DNA of 64,000 nucleotides from Amphiscolops sp. MND2022 (lineage: Eukaryota). The position numbers were made by a program. This document shows positions 51,901 through 57,900 of the stretch, piece after piece; position 1 is the first letter of the stretch, and each line of letters starts with the position of its first letter. Location of the stretch: assembly GCA_964187785.1 (NCBI GenBank), contig OZ076411.1, positions 42,098,001 to 42,162,000 on the forward strand, read 5' to 3'.

Positions 51901-54900
51901 AGAAGATTGGGTGAATTTATGTATCCGTGGAATTTGGTAACTCGTTGCAGTTCATGTACGGATGTAATCTCACTTCCTCTAATACACGTTTATGCAACAA
52001 ACAAATAAATAATAATAAAATCTTCTTCATGCCCAGTAGCACTTAAAGTAATTTCAGTTGATGAAAATATTGGACTTTAATACTGAATACTGACTTTGAT
52101 TGAGTTCATGCCATCACAAACAAAGTTCATCTCACACCAACTGAGTGGACTCAAGTCTCTCGAACACTTCGCTTGCAACCAGCACGGTCCATATATTTTC
52201 TTATACAGAAGCAAGTTCTCCAACGCAGACGTTTTGGCTCCAAAAATTTTGCAGAAAGTGTCACCTTCGATTTGGCTGATTTCTGGAAACTTCGCCGAGT
52301 ATCGAACTTCCAAGTAATCACTTTCCACCGGAACATCCGATATCTCGAAGCAGTACTTCTTGTTCACCATACGAGATTTGAACTTTAAAATCTAAAACGG
52401 AATTTGAATTTCAGTCCGCCTTAACCATTTATCACTATTTCTCTACTATCAAAGAACAAAAATGTTGTGCAACAATTGAATTCGCGAAGTTGTTTTAATT
52501 GGAGTTGAATTCGTAGAATGTGGTGCAAAATTCATACGAGAAGACAAATTCGTTTTGAAGGAAACAATAGCCAAAACAAATTGACTTTGTTGTTGTCAAC
52601 AACGAATTAGAATTTTCGAGTTTTCGCGTATTTAACCTTCAGCTTTCCAGCCATTTTGTCGAACTCCATGTAGAGATCCTTCGGCGTCACGCTCTTGGAT
52701 GGATCGGACTTATGGAACTCACGAGGCAGCAAGAAAATGATCCTTTCTAGATTATTCACTTTCAAGCAACAACTGACAAGCTTGTTTGTTTTCGGGCAGA
52801 GGACTTTGCCGAACAAGAAAATTGAGTCAGGGCTCTTGAAGGTATCTTCATACGCATCGAGCCAATAGAAGTTGATGCACTGACTTCCTACTGCCTGCGA
52901 GGATGGTGACTCAGTGTCATCAAGGCACTCGCTGAAAACAGAAGCCCAGTTGATACCATCATCGAATGCTTCCTCCTTCTCTTCTTTATTCTTCGTTTGG
53001 ATTTCAGGCTGAACATCTACGTTGGGATCCTGCAAATCATCATCGTCATCGAAGTCAATAGATTCGATAATGGCCGAATCTCCGTTTTCTTCCTTCATCT
53101 CAACTGTTTCTTCCTCTTCCTGATCTGCCGTGCATTCAGGAGGGGTATAAAACTGGGTATGCGAAGGCATTTCTAAACAGTAAATAATTTTCACCATTAA
53201 GGTCTGTGTCATGTACTGAAACAAAATGCCTTAGAGGACAGATGAATTTGAAACTTAAAAATGAAAAACATTTCATTGTAAATTATACGTCCCACTCAAC
53301 AATAAACTGCAAATTATTATATGCTTTCTCCGAGCACATAAAATTTGACAGTATGAAATAATTTTTGGTCACGGATCTGTCGAACGTATAATGATTTCAA
53401 TGATCCAATTCACCTTGAGAGGAAGATTTCGCATGATGATCGCTCGAATCGGGCACCTCGGGTTTAGAGCTGACAGCAAATTTGTTGAGTCTGCTGTGAG
53501 ATTTCGGATTGATGAAGGCGGAAGTAGTCGGTTTGTTCAACAGAGAAGCACCATCTTTTCCCCAATTATTCTTCGACGTTTCCAAAAGTCTCAAACTAGA
53601 AGAGGACTTGCTTGAAGGTTTCTCAGGTACGCTGCCTGAAATTGAATAATACAGCCCTGATTTCAAACAAGACAAGAACGTCTAAAGTCGGCGCCATATC
53701 CAAGGCTCAAAAAGCGCAAAGTTTTTAAAATTGTAGAAGGGGGGACTCTTTGGGCTTTTTTAAAATCTTTTTAAAAAATTTGTTGCAAAATATCAAAAAA
53801 AATGAAGGAGCGACCCTTCGGAGACATTGAAAAATTTCGGAAATTTTTTTTAACATTTTCCAAAAAAAACGAAAAATGAGAATTTTCAACAGTCTCATAG
53901 TGCCGAAAAATGTAAAAGGGGGCCCTTTAAGCTTTTTCAACATCCATTCAGGTGCAAAACACCAAAAAAAATAGAAGGGGGACCCTTTGAAGACTTTAAA
54001 AAAAATTCGAAAAAAGTCTCAAAGCTGAAAAAAGGGCGGGGAAAGTCTCATAGCGCCGGAAAATTGGAAGGGGGGACCCTTCTGGTACTGAGTACTTTTG
54101 GTAATCTTTGGTAAACTTTTGGTAAGTGAATCTTTCACAAAAAGTGGTACATACGCGATGAGTGAAAAGTCTGACGAAAAAAACTAGCCACTGTAATAGT
54201 CGGGCTCTTTTCACTAGAAAAGCGCCGACTAAAAACACTAAGTTTCATATAAAAATATCACGTTAATAATAAATAAGGGAGAGAAAATGTTTTCATTGGC
54301 TATGAAAAAAAATTCGATCGATTTTTCAAGTGTCACTTTATGAAATATATAATCCCTCTGTAATTGTGACATTTTTCAGATCCCACAAATTGACCAATCA
54401 ATCCTTATTCTAAGTTTTTTGAGCCGAAAAGCACTTAAACTCTCTTGTAATAAGCTCCTACTTTTGTGAACAAACTTTTAAGCTTTTGCCTTGAAATCCA
54501 GAAGTTCCAGTTCGAAAACTTTTGACGATTTCTAAAAGCAACTTTTGAAAATACCATAAATTTTTGTTTCTTCAATTGAAACAAGACGGGAACGTCTAAA
54601 GTCGGCGCTATATCTAAGGCTCAAAATGCGCAAAAGACTTCTTTTTGAAAAAAAACTTGAAATTTTTGAATTTTTTTCTTTCAGAAAATGTCGCATAGTG
54701 CCGAAAAATGTAAAAGGGGGGACCCTTTGGGCTTTATTACCATATATTCTGTTGCAAAATATCAAAAAACTCGAAAGGGGGACTCTTTTGAGACATTAAA
54801 AAATTTTCGAAAAAAGTCGCACAATGCCGAAAAAAAATCGAAAGGGGTGACCCTTTAGTCTCGTCCGGTTTTGTAGGTTACGTTAAAAAAGTAAAAAATG

Positions 54901-57900
54901 AAAGGGGGACCCTTTTGCACTAATTTCCGCTGACCGGACTTGGCCTTATGGTAGTAGTTTTAGTAGTTTCGATTAAGAAAAGTGGCCCAATCAGAGTGAG
55001 ATTGTAGTCTGACGAAAAAAAAAGAAACAAGACGGGAACGTCCCAAGTCGGCGCCATATCTTAGGCTCAAAAATATTCAAGGAACAACTATTGGAAACAT
55101 TTGGAAAAATTATTTTTTTCAAAAAAAAAATTTGAAATTTTTTTTTCGAAAAAAAGTATTTTTTTTAGAAAGTCGCACAATGCCGAAAAACTCAAAAAGA
55201 GGCCATTCAGGCTCATTAAACGTTTTTACAAACCGAAAACTTCAAAAAAAATGCAATTGATAGATTCCGAAAATTTTCGAAAAAAAAGTCGCATAGTGCC
55301 GAAAAAAACGAAAATAATCAAACGAAACGAAACAAAGCTTTGGTCTCGCATCTACTTTTGGAAGCATAAAAAATTTGTGGTTTAGTGCGAGAATCGAACC
55401 CACGATCCCCTGCTTCTCAGAAAGTTAGTTGAACAAATGTGAACAAATGTGAACAAAGATTGTAAGAAAAGTGGACCACTCAGAGTGAGATTGTCAACTG
55501 AAAAAAACAAAAAAAAAACTACTCACTGTAAGAGTCGGGCTTTTTTCCTTAAGGGAAAAGGCGCCGACTAAAAACAAGACGGGAACGTCTAAAGTCGGCG
55601 CTATATCTAAGGCTCAAAAAAGCACAATTTTTTAAATTTGTTAAAGGGGGGACCCTTTCAACTTTTTCAAAATCCAGTCTGTTGCAAAATATCAAAAAAG
55701 TTGAGGGGGGACCCTTTGGAGACATTTAAAAACTATAAAAAAATTTTTGGAAAAATTTTCGAAAAAAAAACGAAAAATGAGATTTTTGAAACAGTCTCAT
55801 AGTGCCGAAAAACTAGAAAGGGGGACGCTTTGGGCTTTTTGAAACTTCAGTTTGCTGCAAAATATCCAAAAACTTGAAGGGGGACCTTTTGGCGACTAAA
55901 AAAATCGACAAAAAGTCGCACAGTGCCGAAAAAAAATTGAAAGAGTCGCACAGTGCCGAAAAAAATTGCTCGAAAAAGTTTCTGGCTAAAGCAAGGACTC
56001 GAACCCGTGACTGCTGGATTCGCCGTAAACCGAGTACTGACGAGTACATGTGAGCGAGAGTGAAGTCTGTAAAAAGTGGTACATACGCGATGAGGTCTGT
56101 GGTCTGACGAAAAAAAAGAAACAAGACGGGAACGTCTAAAGTCGGCGCTATATCTAAGACTCAAAAAGCGCAGAGTTTTCTAAATATTCCCAGGATGTAT
56201 TCATGAAAAGCTTTGAAAACACTTTCGAGACACCCAAAGTGTGCCTTTCATGCTCGATATGACTGGAAAATCACTTTTCCCGACTGGAAACAAAAAATTG
56301 AAAATTTCTTCGGAAATTTTTTTTTGAAAAAAATTTTTCAAAAAAAACTTCGAAAACGTCGCATAGTGCCGAAAAATGAAAAGGGGGGACCCTCTGGGAT
56401 TCATGATCTTACTTTCTGTTGCAAAATATCAAAAAATCCGAAGGGGGGACTCTTTTGAGACATTAAAAATTTTCGAAAAAAAATTCGCACAGTGCCGAAA
56501 AAAAATTGAAAGGGGGGACCCTTTGGAGCCTTCCGGTTTTGTAGGTTACGTAAAAAACGTAAAAAACGAAAGGGGGACCCTTTGCAGTAAGTTTGCATAG
56601 GTCGAACTCGGCCTGAGTGAACTTATCAGTTTCTGTAAAAAGAGTGGTACATACGCGATGAGCTCTGTGAAAAAAAAAACTAGCCACTGTAATAGTCGGG
56701 CTTTTTTCCTTAAAGGAAAATGCGCCGACTAAAAACTAGCCACTGTGAAAGTCGGGCACTTTTCCCTAGAAAAGCGCCGACTAAAAACTAGCCACTGTAA
56801 TAGTCGGGCACTTTTCACTAGAAAAGCGCCTACTAAAAATCTCGATACCCATATATTAACCAAAAATTTCCTCGGTTACGTTTGTAAATTCAAATAGACA
56901 AGCCCGAAGAGACTTGATTTTTTGAAATTACATTCGATAAATCACTTCTCAACAACAAGCTAAAGAACCGTCATGAATGTTCAAAGTTGGTTTCATTGTC
57001 ATTGTGCGTTGAGCATCAAATTTGAGCTATTCCAAGCATGTTCAACAATATGGTGTAATGTAATGATGTGCATTACAGTTTTAAAACATTTGTACCTTTG
57101 TGGAACGCGTTGCCTGAAAAACTGAAATTGGGAAATCAGACGCATGAAAATGTAAAGAAGAGGTTGAAAACGTTTTTTAATGAAAAATTTGTTAATGACA
57201 TCGATAGACCTCAGTATAGTCAGAAATGTTGGAGTGAATATCGTTTCAAGTAGTCAAATTTTAATGCTCAATATTTGTTTTTTTTATACAATCTTTTGTA
57301 TTGTCCATTTTTTAATAATACGGTTTTACACTGCCCTCCATATATTTGTTTACATTTTAGATATTTTATATGAAGGATTACAGTGTTTTCTTTTTTTTTA
57401 CATCGAATTCAAATGCAATTATCTATATCTAAAATATAGACTTTCGTAATTTTGATCGCACAATCTAAATATTTATGTAAAGTACAGAAACTTCCAAGAA
57501 ACTTTCCTATCTGCCGATTTTTGTATTTGGCCCCTTTTCAAAAAATTTGGATTTTAACTTCATTTTTAGCAATGGAGTCGCATTATTTCGGGACGCATAT
57601 GTAGTCAAGAATGCGATAGTAAAAACACGAGTTCAATTCTATAGGAAGGCGGAAAATGAACATTGAACTTACGGAAGACTTGTGAACACTTACTAGAGGC
57701 CGGCGTGAGTTCTTTGAGGATATCACCCAAAATGTCATCTTCCTCAATCTTGACTTTCGCCTCTTTAACCTTCGTGTTGTTTCCCATGGAACGAAACACG
57801 TCATCAATACACTTCATTTTCTTCTTGGTAGTGCCACCTTCTTGATCGCCTTTCTCACCGTCGGCTTTTCGTTTTTTGATTGGCTTTCTATCACCTGGTC

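What the first reader, a model, noticed from the sequence alone, without database searches (positions are those of the whole stretch)
54579..56838. Russian-doll self-insertion: stacked 5' modules balance headless bodies like brackets
Seen on the minus strand: three consecutive ~57-bp 5' modules (56838-56672), each ending in TAGTTTTT where the next begins, then body e, headless body d, complete copy c and headless body b. Three modules match bodies e, d and b exactly. The same logic holds at 7698-8846 and 22830-25530. Known: Helentrons insert in TT sites. Inferred: the element carries its own preferred target just behind its head, a self-made safe haven that inflates introns and mimics tandem satellites.
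Basis: partly seen in the sequence, partly recalled or inferred. Interest (0 to 1): 0.65.

Follow-up and report, generated by a model that had tools for sequence, protein, structure and literature searches.

The report
Nested rolling-circle transposon copies in an intron
Small non-coding mobile elements of the Helentron/DINE-1 kind have jumped repeatedly into the same spot just behind the starting hairpin of earlier copies, which stacks their heads and lines up their bodies like a tandem repeat; this behaviour is known in principle.

Summary
On the minus strand, three 52-56-nt hairpin heads (56839-56680) are followed by four bodies, each ending in the family's tail. Three bodies are headless and one copy is complete.

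The family has the anatomy of HINE/DINE-1-like non-autonomous Helentrons or Helitron2 elements:
- a 5' hairpin
- subterminal inverted repeats
- a short 3' stem-loop with a compensatory change
- internal repeats
- boundaries in runs of T
- no target duplication and no coding capacity (PMC4067079)

Serial nested insertion is the best explanation:
- Head and body counts match at all three loci.
- Every headless body begins at the run of T plus (C)GTCAGAC that normally follows a head.
- Heads and bodies are 73-92% alike, and most are closer to copies elsewhere in the window.
- A sister copy at 53665-54237 shows the uninterrupted state of the nest at 7.7 kb.

The spot behind the head took 5 of 9 within-family nested insertions. 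Chance gives P of about 1e-5 to 2e-3. The other four lie elsewhere, and the sample is small and was picked post hoc.

Stacked 5' termini explained by self-insertion are already published for fungal Helitron2 elements (PMC5148889). This is a new member of a known kind, of modest interest.

The parts
56788..56839 (-). Head 1, the outermost 5' module. It consists of five T, a hairpin (AGTAGGCGC...GCCCGACT) and ATTACAGTGGCTAG. It belongs with body b.
   Evidence: E 6.9e-18; hairpin -10.1 kcal/mol, z -4.4. One change in the otherwise conserved AGTCGG core.
56736..56787 (-). Head 2, the 5' module of the copy whose body is d.
   Evidence: E 3.9e-18; -11.8 kcal/mol. 92% identical to head 1 and 84% to head 3.
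56680..56735 (-). Head 3, the 5' module of the innermost copy e.
   Evidence: Head 3 plus body e aligns without a break to the solitary copy 663-1270 (87.6% over 627 columns). 93% identical to that copy's head.
56118..56679 (-). Run of ten T plus body e with its tail (innermost copy).
   Evidence: Best match of the body is 742-1205 elsewhere in the window (558 bits) and not a neighbour (289 bits).
55575..56117 (-). Headless body d. It starts with eight T plus CGTCAGACC directly after the tail of e and ends in a tail.
   Evidence: Best matches are 8492-8775 and 53737-54033, outside the array.
55024..55574 (-). Complete copy c (head, body, tail). Its head follows the tail of d with exactly five T between CTTG and AGTCGG.
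   Evidence: (head E 4.5e-18, tail E 2.8e-20).
54578..55023 (-). Headless body b (outermost copy). It starts with a run of T plus CGTCAGACT after the tail of c. Its tail abuts unique intron sequence.
7686..7741 (+). Second locus: damaged outer head, with about 6 nt missing from the 5' arm of the hairpin.
   Evidence: alignment to the head of the sister copy 54237-53665.
7742..8313 (+). Second locus: complete inner copy inserted behind the outer head.
   Evidence: (head E 1.3e-16, tail E 9.4e-21).
8314..8847 (+). Second locus: headless outer body. A further 82 nt (to about 8929) are identical to the 3' flank of the sister copy.
   Evidence: (8315-8926 against 54183-53586, 86%).
53665..54237 (-). 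Solitary sister copy of the outer element at 7.7 kb. It shows head and body uninterrupted, which is the state before the nested insertion.
   Evidence: The 5' flanks differ, the element and 82 nt of 3' flank are shared.
25480..25530 (-). Third locus: outer head, directly after a solitary tail fragment (25531-25606).
   Evidence: The hairpin is kept by a double change (AGTCTG/CAGATT).
23503..25479 (-). Third locus: inner copy (head to tail). It carries about 1.5 kb of foreign DNA (about 23690-25222).
   Evidence: (its two ends match the 443-nt solitary copy 21470-21912 at 82-83%).
23160..23502 (-). Third locus: headless outer body, starting GTCAGACC right after the inner tail. Its 3' end was not found.
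   Evidence: no tail hit between 22800 and 23500.
663..1270 (+). Reference solitary copy of 608 nt. It lies inside the tail region of an older decayed copy (about 95-1319).
14479..15443 (-). Nest at a different site: inner copy 15017-14631 sits in the 3' part of the body of an outer copy.
   Evidence: The reconstructed empty site aligns across the junction.
20771..21960 (+). Nests at other sites. The outer (+) copy has a head hairpin split by an inverted copy (20795-21204, -) and a body holding another copy (21470-21912, +).
   Evidence: The head alignment crosses the junction. The second nest rests on the order of flanking family sequence only.

Best explanation
The locus records serial nested insertions of one family of short non-coding rolling-circle elements. 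These are HINE/DINE-1-like, that is, non-autonomous Helentron or Helitron2 derivatives, and the transposase is supplied from elsewhere.

Anatomy of a copy: four or five T, a hairpin of about 35-40 nt whose 5' arm is also the 5' subterminal inverted repeat, ATTACAGTGGCTAG, a run of 7-10 T, a body with internal repeats, the 3' inverted repeat, a 5-bp stem-loop, and CTTGT(T).

History of the locus:
1. The outermost copy (head 1 plus body b) landed in an intron of a DNA polymerase alpha-like gene.
2. Copy c entered the run of T right behind head 1.
3. Copy d (head 2 plus body d) entered the same run.
4. Copy e (head 3 plus body e) entered the equivalent run behind head 2.
The order of steps 2 and 3 cannot be told.

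Each hit splits the host into a 52-nt head and a headless body. Heads therefore stack on the 5' side and bodies line up on the 3' side.

Shown: the anatomy, the matching counts, the exact resumption points, the divergence between neighbours, and an uninterrupted sister copy.

Inferred:
- The run behind the head is a true hot spot and not merely an available T tract.
- The cause is something specific to the resident 5' end. One possibility is that transposase bound to the resident hairpin makes the adjacent T|T step the preferred entry point.
- Insertions there are tolerated because both ends of the host copy stay intact.
For: Anatomy:
- The 9-nt AGTCGGCGC of the head is the reverse complement of GCGCCGACT in the tail.
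- 14 of 16 heads fold into the same hairpin. The two that do not are decayed. Inner-stem sequences differ between copies but stay paired.
- The 3' stem-loop shows a compensatory change, AGACG/CGTCT against GGCCG/CGGCT.
- These features match passages of PMC4067079: subTIRs, a 5' IR nested in the subTIR, a 3' stem-loop, central repeats, TT insertion, 2-5 boundary Ts that belong to the element, and no target-site change.

Nesting:
- There are three heads, three headless bodies and one complete copy.
- All 4 headless bodies in the window follow another copy's tail and start at the run of T plus (C)GTCAGAC. In 6 uninterrupted copies that same sequence follows the head.
- Head 3 plus body e is collinear with a solitary copy.
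- The sister copy 53665-54237 has head and body contiguous where 7742-8313 interrupts the copy at 7.7 kb.

Not local duplication:
- Head 1 against head 2 is 92% identical, and either against head 3 is 84%. Head 3 is closest to the head at 664-719 (93%).
- Bodies e, d and b have their best match outside the array. Body c matches nothing well.

Hot spot:
- 5 of 9 within-family nested insertions lie behind a head.
- The run holds 4-12% of the TT steps of a copy under four ways of counting, which gives P(at least 5 of 9) between 1e-5 and 2e-3.
- At 3 of 4 scorable 5' junctions, at most one host T is left upstream of the insert, while 8-9 host Ts remain downstream at three of the four 3' junctions (about three at the 22-kb locus).
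Against: - Four nested insertions lie elsewhere: in a body (twice), in a tail region, and inverted inside a head hairpin. The site is therefore preferred at best, not obligatory.
- Two of those four rest on weaker evidence, so the denominator is 7 to 9.
- The window came to notice because of this pattern, which makes the P values optimistic.
- Head type and body type do not co-vary cleanly. Head 1 is of the CTAGTG-loop type. Body b is of a type otherwise seen here with CCTTTAAGG-loop heads. The pairing of head 1 with body b rests on geometry alone.
- The only sister-copy comparison does not give a clean T|T empty site: T9-C-[insert]-T9 against T7.
- Hairpins do not precede other insertion sites in general (n = 11 against 769 background sites, Mann-Whitney p = 0.65). 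The proposed role of the resident hairpin therefore has no independent support.
- No age ordering could be shown.
Confidence: 0.75

Rival explanations
1. Nesting is real but there is no special target. Elements insert at any T|T step, copies of this T-rich family cover much of the non-coding DNA, and the cluster behind the heads is chance plus post-hoc selection of the window.
For: - The family covers about 17% of the window.
- 9 of about 20 recognisable copies are nested in the family.
- 4 of the 9 lie at other positions.
- In 6 of 10 uninterrupted copies the run behind the head is the longest or joint-longest T run. A steep preference for long runs would raise the expected share.
Against: - Other insertion sites in the window are not long T runs: 46292, 54237, 15017, 21470.
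- Under four availability nulls P is 1e-5 to 2e-3.
- Inserts sit at the 5' edge of the run and not spread along it.
Confidence: 0.3
2. Aberrant rolling-circle replication produced the array. A circular intermediate that had lost its terminator was copied round and round and integrated as a tandem. This is the model of Xiong et al. 2016, known to me only through the review PMC12628747 and the discussion in PMC8268682.
For: Several 5' ends in a row are what that model predicts. Direct tail-to-head junctions with exactly five T occur twice, at 55575/55569 and 25531/25525.
Against: - The model gives many 5' ends with a single 3' end, and near-identical units.
- Here there are four tails, heads without bodies next to bodies without heads, and units 73-92% alike that belong to different subfamilies.
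Confidence: 0.05
3. Local duplication: the heads multiplied by replication slippage and the bodies by unequal crossing-over, independently of each other.
For: Tandem Repeats Finder scores the heads as a 52-nt tandem repeat. Heads 1 and 2 are of the same subtype.
Against: - Independent processes would not give matching numbers of heads and headless bodies at three loci.
- Head 1 is at least as close to the head at 54.2 kb (96% over 56 nt by BLAST) as to its neighbour (92%).
- The bodies are not each other's nearest relatives.
Confidence: 0.05
4. Assembly artefact: repeats were joined in the wrong order.
For: The region is dense in repeats. No reads were available to check.
Against: - The copies differ by 8-27%, so each junction is flanked by distinguishable sequence.
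- The same architecture recurs at two other loci with different subfamilies.
Confidence: 0.03

Closest known systems
HINE / DINE-1-like non-autonomous Helentrons (Thomas, Vadnagara and Pritham 2014, PMC4067079; passages read)
   Same: - subterminal inverted repeats
- a 5' inverted repeat whose 5' side lies inside the 5' subTIR
- a short 3' stem-loop
- internal repeats
- T-rich boundaries with a variable number of Ts
- no target duplication and no coding capacity
- high copy number in non-coding DNA
   Different: - No sequence relation to any described family could be tested, because no repeat library or eukaryotic genome collection was on hand.
- That paper does not report site-specific self-insertion in the passages I saw. 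'Nested' occurs there only for the IR inside the subTIR.
FoHeli (Helitron2-like) elements of Fusarium with multiple 5' termini (Chellapan et al. 2016, PMC5148889; passages and section 10 read)
   Same: - The first 31-85 nt of the element are repeated head to head.
- The authors propose self-insertion near the 5' end as the origin. They also mention three tandem copies in Metarhizium as either a double insertion into a 5' end or rolling-circle replication.
   Different: - There, the multiple 5' termini go with a single 3' terminus and have moved as a unit to several places, which the authors explain by chimeric excision.
- Here the un-excised precursor is seen, with one headless body per extra head.
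- No multi-head, single-body copy lies in this window.
- The host here is an animal, not a fungus.
Tandem dimers by double insertion at a preferred site (McGurk and Barbash 2018, PMC5932611; passages read)
   Same: - Two insertions into one preferred site give a head-to-tail pair (here d followed by c).
- Such pairs are proposed there as seeds of satellite arrays.
   Different: - Those cases are cut-and-paste or retro-elements whose junction holds a target-site duplication.
- Here the preferred site lies inside the element itself, so the result is nesting as well as tandem order.
- Helitrons and INE-1 are not mentioned in that text (0 occurrences).
Rolling-circle tandem arrays of truncated Helitrons in plant centromeres (Xiong, Dooner and Du 2016; seen only as summarised in PMC12628747 and PMC8268682)
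   Same: Several 5' ends in one locus of a rolling-circle element.
   Different: That model gives a single 3' end and near-identical units. Here there are four 3' ends and diverged units.

Membership tests
HINE / DINE-1-like (non-autonomous Helentron) | Short subterminal inverted repeats | tested here: met
   AGTCGGCGC in the head is the reverse complement of GCGCCGACT in the tail. It is present in nearly all copies.
HINE / DINE-1-like (non-autonomous Helentron) | 5' inverted repeat (hairpin) whose 5' side lies inside the 5' subTIR | tested here: met
   14 of 16 heads fold into this hairpin. z is -1.3 to -4.9 for those 14, and stem sequences vary but stay paired.
HINE / DINE-1-like (non-autonomous Helentron) | [quoted passage not shown] | tested here: met
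   AGACG-TTCC-CGTCT lies a few bases from the end. The variant GGCCG/CGGCT keeps the pairing.
HINE / DINE-1-like (non-autonomous Helentron) | Central repeats | tested here: met
   Bodies hold two to four diverged units of about 60-100 nt built round GGGTCCCCC. Within-copy matches are 77-78%. Tandem Repeats Finder calls only a 30-nt unit of 2.2 copies.
HINE / DINE-1-like (non-autonomous Helentron) | Insertion within TT, boundary Ts, no target-site duplication | tested here: inconclusive
   - The 17 copies whose 5' junction can be read mostly carry five T before AGTCGG (by eye about 12 with five, 4 with six, 1 with three).
- If the 3' end is set at CTTGT the next base is T in every 3' junction read, about a dozen.
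- No duplication is seen.
- Five tails end CTTGTTTC, and the one sister-copy comparison is not clean.
HINE / DINE-1-like (non-autonomous Helentron) | No coding capacity; mobilised by a Rep/helicase/AP-endonuclease element sharing the termini | not testable with these tools
   - No Pfam family was found in ORFs overlapping the copies.
- No Rep or Helitron helicase was found in the 27 ORFs scanned, out of 37 ORFs of at least 110 aa.
- The rest of the genome is not available.
Helitron2-type element | Asymmetric terminal inverted repeats, a hairpin at each end, insertion at T(T/C), transposase without endonuclease (as summarised in PMC13085455, section 18) | tested here: inconclusive
   The end structures fit as well as they fit Helentron. 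Only the autonomous partner would decide.
Canonical Helitron | 5' TC, 3' CTRR, a hairpin near the 3' end only, insertion between A and T (PMC4067079) | tested here: not met
   The ends are T-run-AGTCGG and CTTGT(T), the flanks are T-rich, and hairpins lie at both ends.
MITE (cut-and-paste) | Terminal inverted repeats flanked by a target-site duplication | tested here: not met
   The inverted repeats are subterminal, and no duplication flanks any copy.
Multiple 5' termini through self-insertion (FoHeli model, PMC5148889) | A short 5' segment repeated head to head | tested here: met
   Three 52-56-nt heads in a row here, and two at each of two other loci.
Multiple 5' termini through self-insertion (FoHeli model, PMC5148889) | The composite with one 3' terminus has transposed as a unit | tested here: not met
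   Each extra head has its own headless body and tail. No multi-head, single-body copy was found in 64 kb.

The most novel reading that the evidence does not exclude
The resident 5' hairpin acts as a landing pad. Transposase bound to the head of an existing copy directs an incoming copy to the first T|T step behind it. This would be a homing rule, the opposite of target immunity. It lets a non-autonomous rolling-circle element pile up harmlessly in itself. It would also supply both the stacked-head composites known from fungi and the first steps of satellite-like arrays.
Probability: 0.2. Interest if true: 0.55.

Novelty: new member of a known kind. Interest (0 to 1): 0.3.

Why it matters
If the hot spot is real genome-wide, it would give a concrete, testable rule for how Helentron-type elements choose targets. 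It would also show how stacked 5' ends and tandem-looking arrays arise from ordinary transposition.

This window contributes the un-excised precursor that the fungal self-insertion model predicts, with one headless body for each extra head. For annotation it is a practical warning: such stacks will be called as minisatellites or as fragmentary copies unless they are read as nests.

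Tried and rejected
- My first head pattern had the wrong spacing and found nothing. Scripts and profiles replaced it.
- tRNA origin of a roughly 70-nt body module. ARAGORN found no gene. Rfam found no hit in the whole window at E up to 1, and no tRNA hit in two targeted scans at E up to 10. A B-box-like motif that I recalled from memory is not enriched (12 found, 12.2 expected).
- Hairpin next to the target as a general rule: not supported.
- G before the boundary Ts, and likeness of the 5' flanks to the element's own 3' end: looked at by eye in the flanks, and not convincing once the repeated behind-head sites are set aside.
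- Age ordering from profile scores. Heads rise from outer to inner (60.5, 61.3, 66.7; 39.9 against 43.3). Tails do not (73.0, 67.5, 74.8, 73.6), and two outer heads were not in the training set. Inconclusive.
- Naming the host. The closest relatives of the SMUBP-2-like ORF are unnamed records (79%, 57%, 54%). Named ones reach about 35-48% (37% at near-full coverage) and are molluscs, echinoderms, rotifers and fishes. I left it at 'a metazoan'.
- Literature. 'Nested' is absent from Yang and Barbash 2008 and from the oyster satellitome paper. Searches turned up no report of a site-specific self-insertion hot spot in animal HINEs. The library lacks most subscription journals, and supplements were closed.

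Full report
WHAT IS THERE

Read on the minus strand, 56839-54578 consists of these parts:
- three short modules in a row: 56839-56788, 56787-56736 and 56735-56680
- a run of ten T
- a body ending in a characteristic tail (e, to about 56118)
- a second body without a head (d, to 55575)
- a complete copy with its own head (c, 55574 to about 55024)
- a third headless body (b, to about 54578)

The 30-nt tail motif occurs nine times in the window at up to three mismatches, with none expected in 100 shuffles. Four of the nine are the tails of b, c, d and e. A profile search with heads and tails gives the same map. Tandem Repeats Finder reports the heads as a repeat of period 52, 3.1 copies, 88% matches. 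The window contains no N.

The window is not human. It carries a DNA polymerase alpha-like gene and an SMUBP-2-like helicase gene. The best named relatives of the helicase ORF are only 35-48% identical, about 37% for those aligned over nearly its whole length, and are invertebrates and fishes. I searched ORFs one by one and did not build or search a joined (spliced) model of either gene.

WHAT THE REPEAT IS

About twenty copies or fragments lie in the 64 kb and cover about 17% of it. Uninterrupted copies are at 663-1270, 46292-47057, 53665-54237, 20795-21204, 14631-15017, 21470-21912 and 32195-32651. From them the unit reads as follows:
- four to six T
- a hairpin, AGTCGGCGC-loop-GCCCGACT
- ATTACAGTGGCTAG
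- seven to ten T
- usually CGTCAGAC
- a body with diverged internal repeats built round GGGTCCCCC
- GCGCCGACT, the reverse complement of the head's first nine bases
- a 5-bp stem-loop
- CTTGT(T)

Structure and coding:
- Fourteen of sixteen heads fold into the same hairpin as single-stranded DNA. The two exceptions are visibly decayed. The inner stem differs in sequence between copies while staying paired.
- The 3' stem-loop occurs as AGACG/CGTCT and as GGCCG/CGGCT, a compensatory change.
- No ORF in or near the copies matches a Pfam family. None of the 27 ORFs scanned, out of 37 of at least 110 aa, is a Rep or Helitron helicase.

This is the anatomy that Thomas and co-workers give for DINE-1 and other Helentron-associated interspersed elements (PMC4067079, passages seen):
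- subterminal inverted repeats
- a 5' inverted repeat nested in the subTIR
- a 3' stem-loop
- central repeats
- insertion within TT
- two to five boundary Ts that belong to the element and vary in number
- no target-site change

Helitron2 elements are summarised as having the same kind of ends (PMC13085455, section 18). Without the autonomous partner I cannot say which of the two it is. A canonical Helitron (TC...CTRR, A|T) and a MITE with a target duplication are both excluded.

WHY NESTING IS THE BEST READING

An element is head plus body. An insertion into the run of T between them gives head, [head, body], body. A second insertion into the inner copy at the same place gives three heads followed by three bodies. 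The evidence:

1. The counts fit at all three loci.
   - Here there are three heads, three headless bodies and one complete copy.
   - At 7686-8847 there are two heads, one complete inner copy and one headless body.
   - At 25530-23160 there are two heads, an inner copy with a tail and a headless body. The outer tail was not found there.
2. All four headless bodies in the window follow another copy's tail and start at the run of T plus (C)GTCAGAC. In six uninterrupted copies that same sequence follows the head.
3. Head 3 plus body e is collinear with the solitary copy 663-1270 (87.6% over 627 columns).
4. The outer copy at 7.7 kb has a sister at 53665-54237.
   - The two share the element and 82 further bases of 3' flank without a single difference, and their 5' flanks are unrelated.
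   - In the sister the head runs straight into the body. At 7.7 kb a complete copy (7742-8313) sits between them.
5. The parts are not recent local duplicates.
   - Heads 1 and 2 are 92% identical, and either is 84% identical to head 3.
   - Head 3 is closest to the head of the copy at 663 (93%).
   - Bodies e, d and b have their best match elsewhere in the window, and c matches nothing well.

This removes slippage plus unequal crossing-over, which has no reason to keep heads and bodies equal in number. It also removes the rolling-circle amplification model for plant Helitron arrays, which predicts many 5' ends with one 3' end and near-identical units. I know that model only through the review PMC12628747 and the discussion in PMC8268682. 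An assembly error is unlikely because neighbours differ by 8-27%, but no reads were available.

IS THE SPOT BEHIND THE HEAD PREFERRED?

I count nine insertions of the family into itself.
- Five are behind a head: e, d and c here, 7742-8313, and 25479-23503.
- Four are elsewhere:
  - 15017-14631, in the 3' part of a body
  - 20795-21204, inverted inside a head hairpin
  - 663-1270, in the tail region of a decayed copy
  - 21470-21912, in a body

For the first two of these four, the site rebuilt without the insert aligns across the junction. For the last two, only one side or the order of flanking family sequence supports it.

In ten uninterrupted copies the run behind the head holds 4% of the TT steps on both strands, 6% on the top strand, and 12% of the TT steps in runs of five or more. 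It is one of about ten such runs. The chance of at least five hits in nine is then between 1e-5 and 2e-3.

The inserts also sit at the 5' edge of the run. Exactly five T precede AGTCGG at both head-to-head junctions here and six at 25479, as at solitary copies. Eight to nine host Ts remain on the 3' side at three of the four nests, and only about three at the 22-kb locus.

Against this:
- The window was flagged because of the pattern.
- Nine events are few.
- In six of ten copies this run is the longest in the element.
- The comparison with the sister copy leaves twelve unexplained bases (T9-C-insert-T9 against T7).

A general liking for long T runs does not explain it, since other insertion sites in the window are not long runs. 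A hairpin next to the target is not a general feature of the other eleven sites either (p = 0.65). I therefore hold the hot spot as likely but unproven, and its cause as open. The guess I favour is that the resident 5' end itself, perhaps with transposase bound, guides the incoming copy. That is inference.

- The copies do fill introns. About 65% of the 4374 nt between the ORF-exons at 53230 and 57605 are this family, and 766 of about 1325 nt in the next intron.
- 'Inner copies younger' could not be tested. Profile scores of heads rise from outer to inner, but those of tails do not.
- 'Safe haven' is an interpretation that sequence alone cannot test.

COMPARISON WITH WHAT IS KNOWN

The closest precedent is in Fusarium. 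Helitron2-like FoHeli elements occur with the first 31, 65, 73 or 85 nt repeated. The authors propose self-insertion near the 5' end followed by excision from the outermost 5' end to the first 3' end. They note three tandem copies in Metarhizium as either two insertions into a 5' end or rolling-circle replication (PMC5148889). Their supplementary tables and figures, which I could not open, may hold nests like the present one.

McGurk and Barbash showed that double insertion at a preferred site makes tandem dimers of many Drosophila elements and proposed these as seeds of satellites (PMC5932611).

Complex loci with Helentron parts inserted in one another are reported from the Pacific oyster (review PMC12628747).

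My searches and the texts opened gave no report of a position-specific self-insertion hot spot in an animal HINE. The library lacks most subscription journals.

The finding is thus a new member of a known kind. It is a clean example of the un-excised precursor that the self-insertion model predicts.

WHAT STAYED UNCHECKED

- No eukaryotic genome or repeat library was on hand. Copies outside these 64 kb, the autonomous partner, subfamily consensuses and read support could therefore not be examined.
- The supplements of PMC4067079 (empty sites, variable Ts) and of PMC5148889 (multiple termini) were closed.

Noticed in passing
window 8848-8929 (+) and 53664-53583 (-): The copies at 7.7 kb and 53.7 kb share 82 nt beyond their tails without a difference, while their 5' flanks are unrelated. 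This looks like a read-through past the 3' end that carried flank along, as rolling-circle elements do. At 7.7 kb the shared stretch is followed by a fragment resembling a tail end (weak profile hit 8920-8945, E 0.7).
   Followed up: partly
window about 23690-25222 (-), inside the inner copy of the 22-25 kb locus: About 1.5 kb of foreign DNA splits a GGGTCCCCC unit of the element. By eye its ends are inverted repeats (CAGGGTGGCCAAA...) with repeated GGTCCGTATT motifs and a possible 8-bp duplication. The likeness to hAT-type ends is my recollection, not a test. Its two ORFs (24019-24438, 24578-25003) match no Pfam family.
   Followed up: partly
window 165-260 (+), 21300-21400 (+), 23390-23480 (-), 32450-32545 (-), 55345-55440 (-), 55970-56060 (-): Six bodies share a module of about 70 nt that looks tRNA-like by eye: a GGTTCGA-type box...ACCA, then a run of T (alignment A2). 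ARAGORN and Rfam call no tRNA.
   Followed up: partly
window 50453-51156: A tandem repeat of about 187 nt, 76-80% between units, lies in an intron of the polymerase alpha-like gene. It is unrelated to the family studied.
   Followed up: no
window 59634-59910, 60743-61042, 23160-23279, 10543-10673, 14534-14636: Another dispersed repeat family, 81-85% between copies. One copy lies inside the headless outer body at 23 kb and may be why that body's tail was not found.
   Followed up: no
window 1271-1319 (+), 3332-3408 (+), 6998-7036 (-), 25531-25606 (-), 60157-60188 (-): Solitary tail fragments without a recognisable head or body. The one at 25531-25606 is joined to the next head by exactly five T, the same junction as between d and c.
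   Followed up: partly
window 38788-42325 (-): The closest relatives of the SMUBP-2-like helicase ORF are unnamed records at 79%, 57% and 54% identity. Named proteins reach about 35-48%, 37% at near-full coverage. The host lineage seems poorly represented among named genomes.
   Followed up: no
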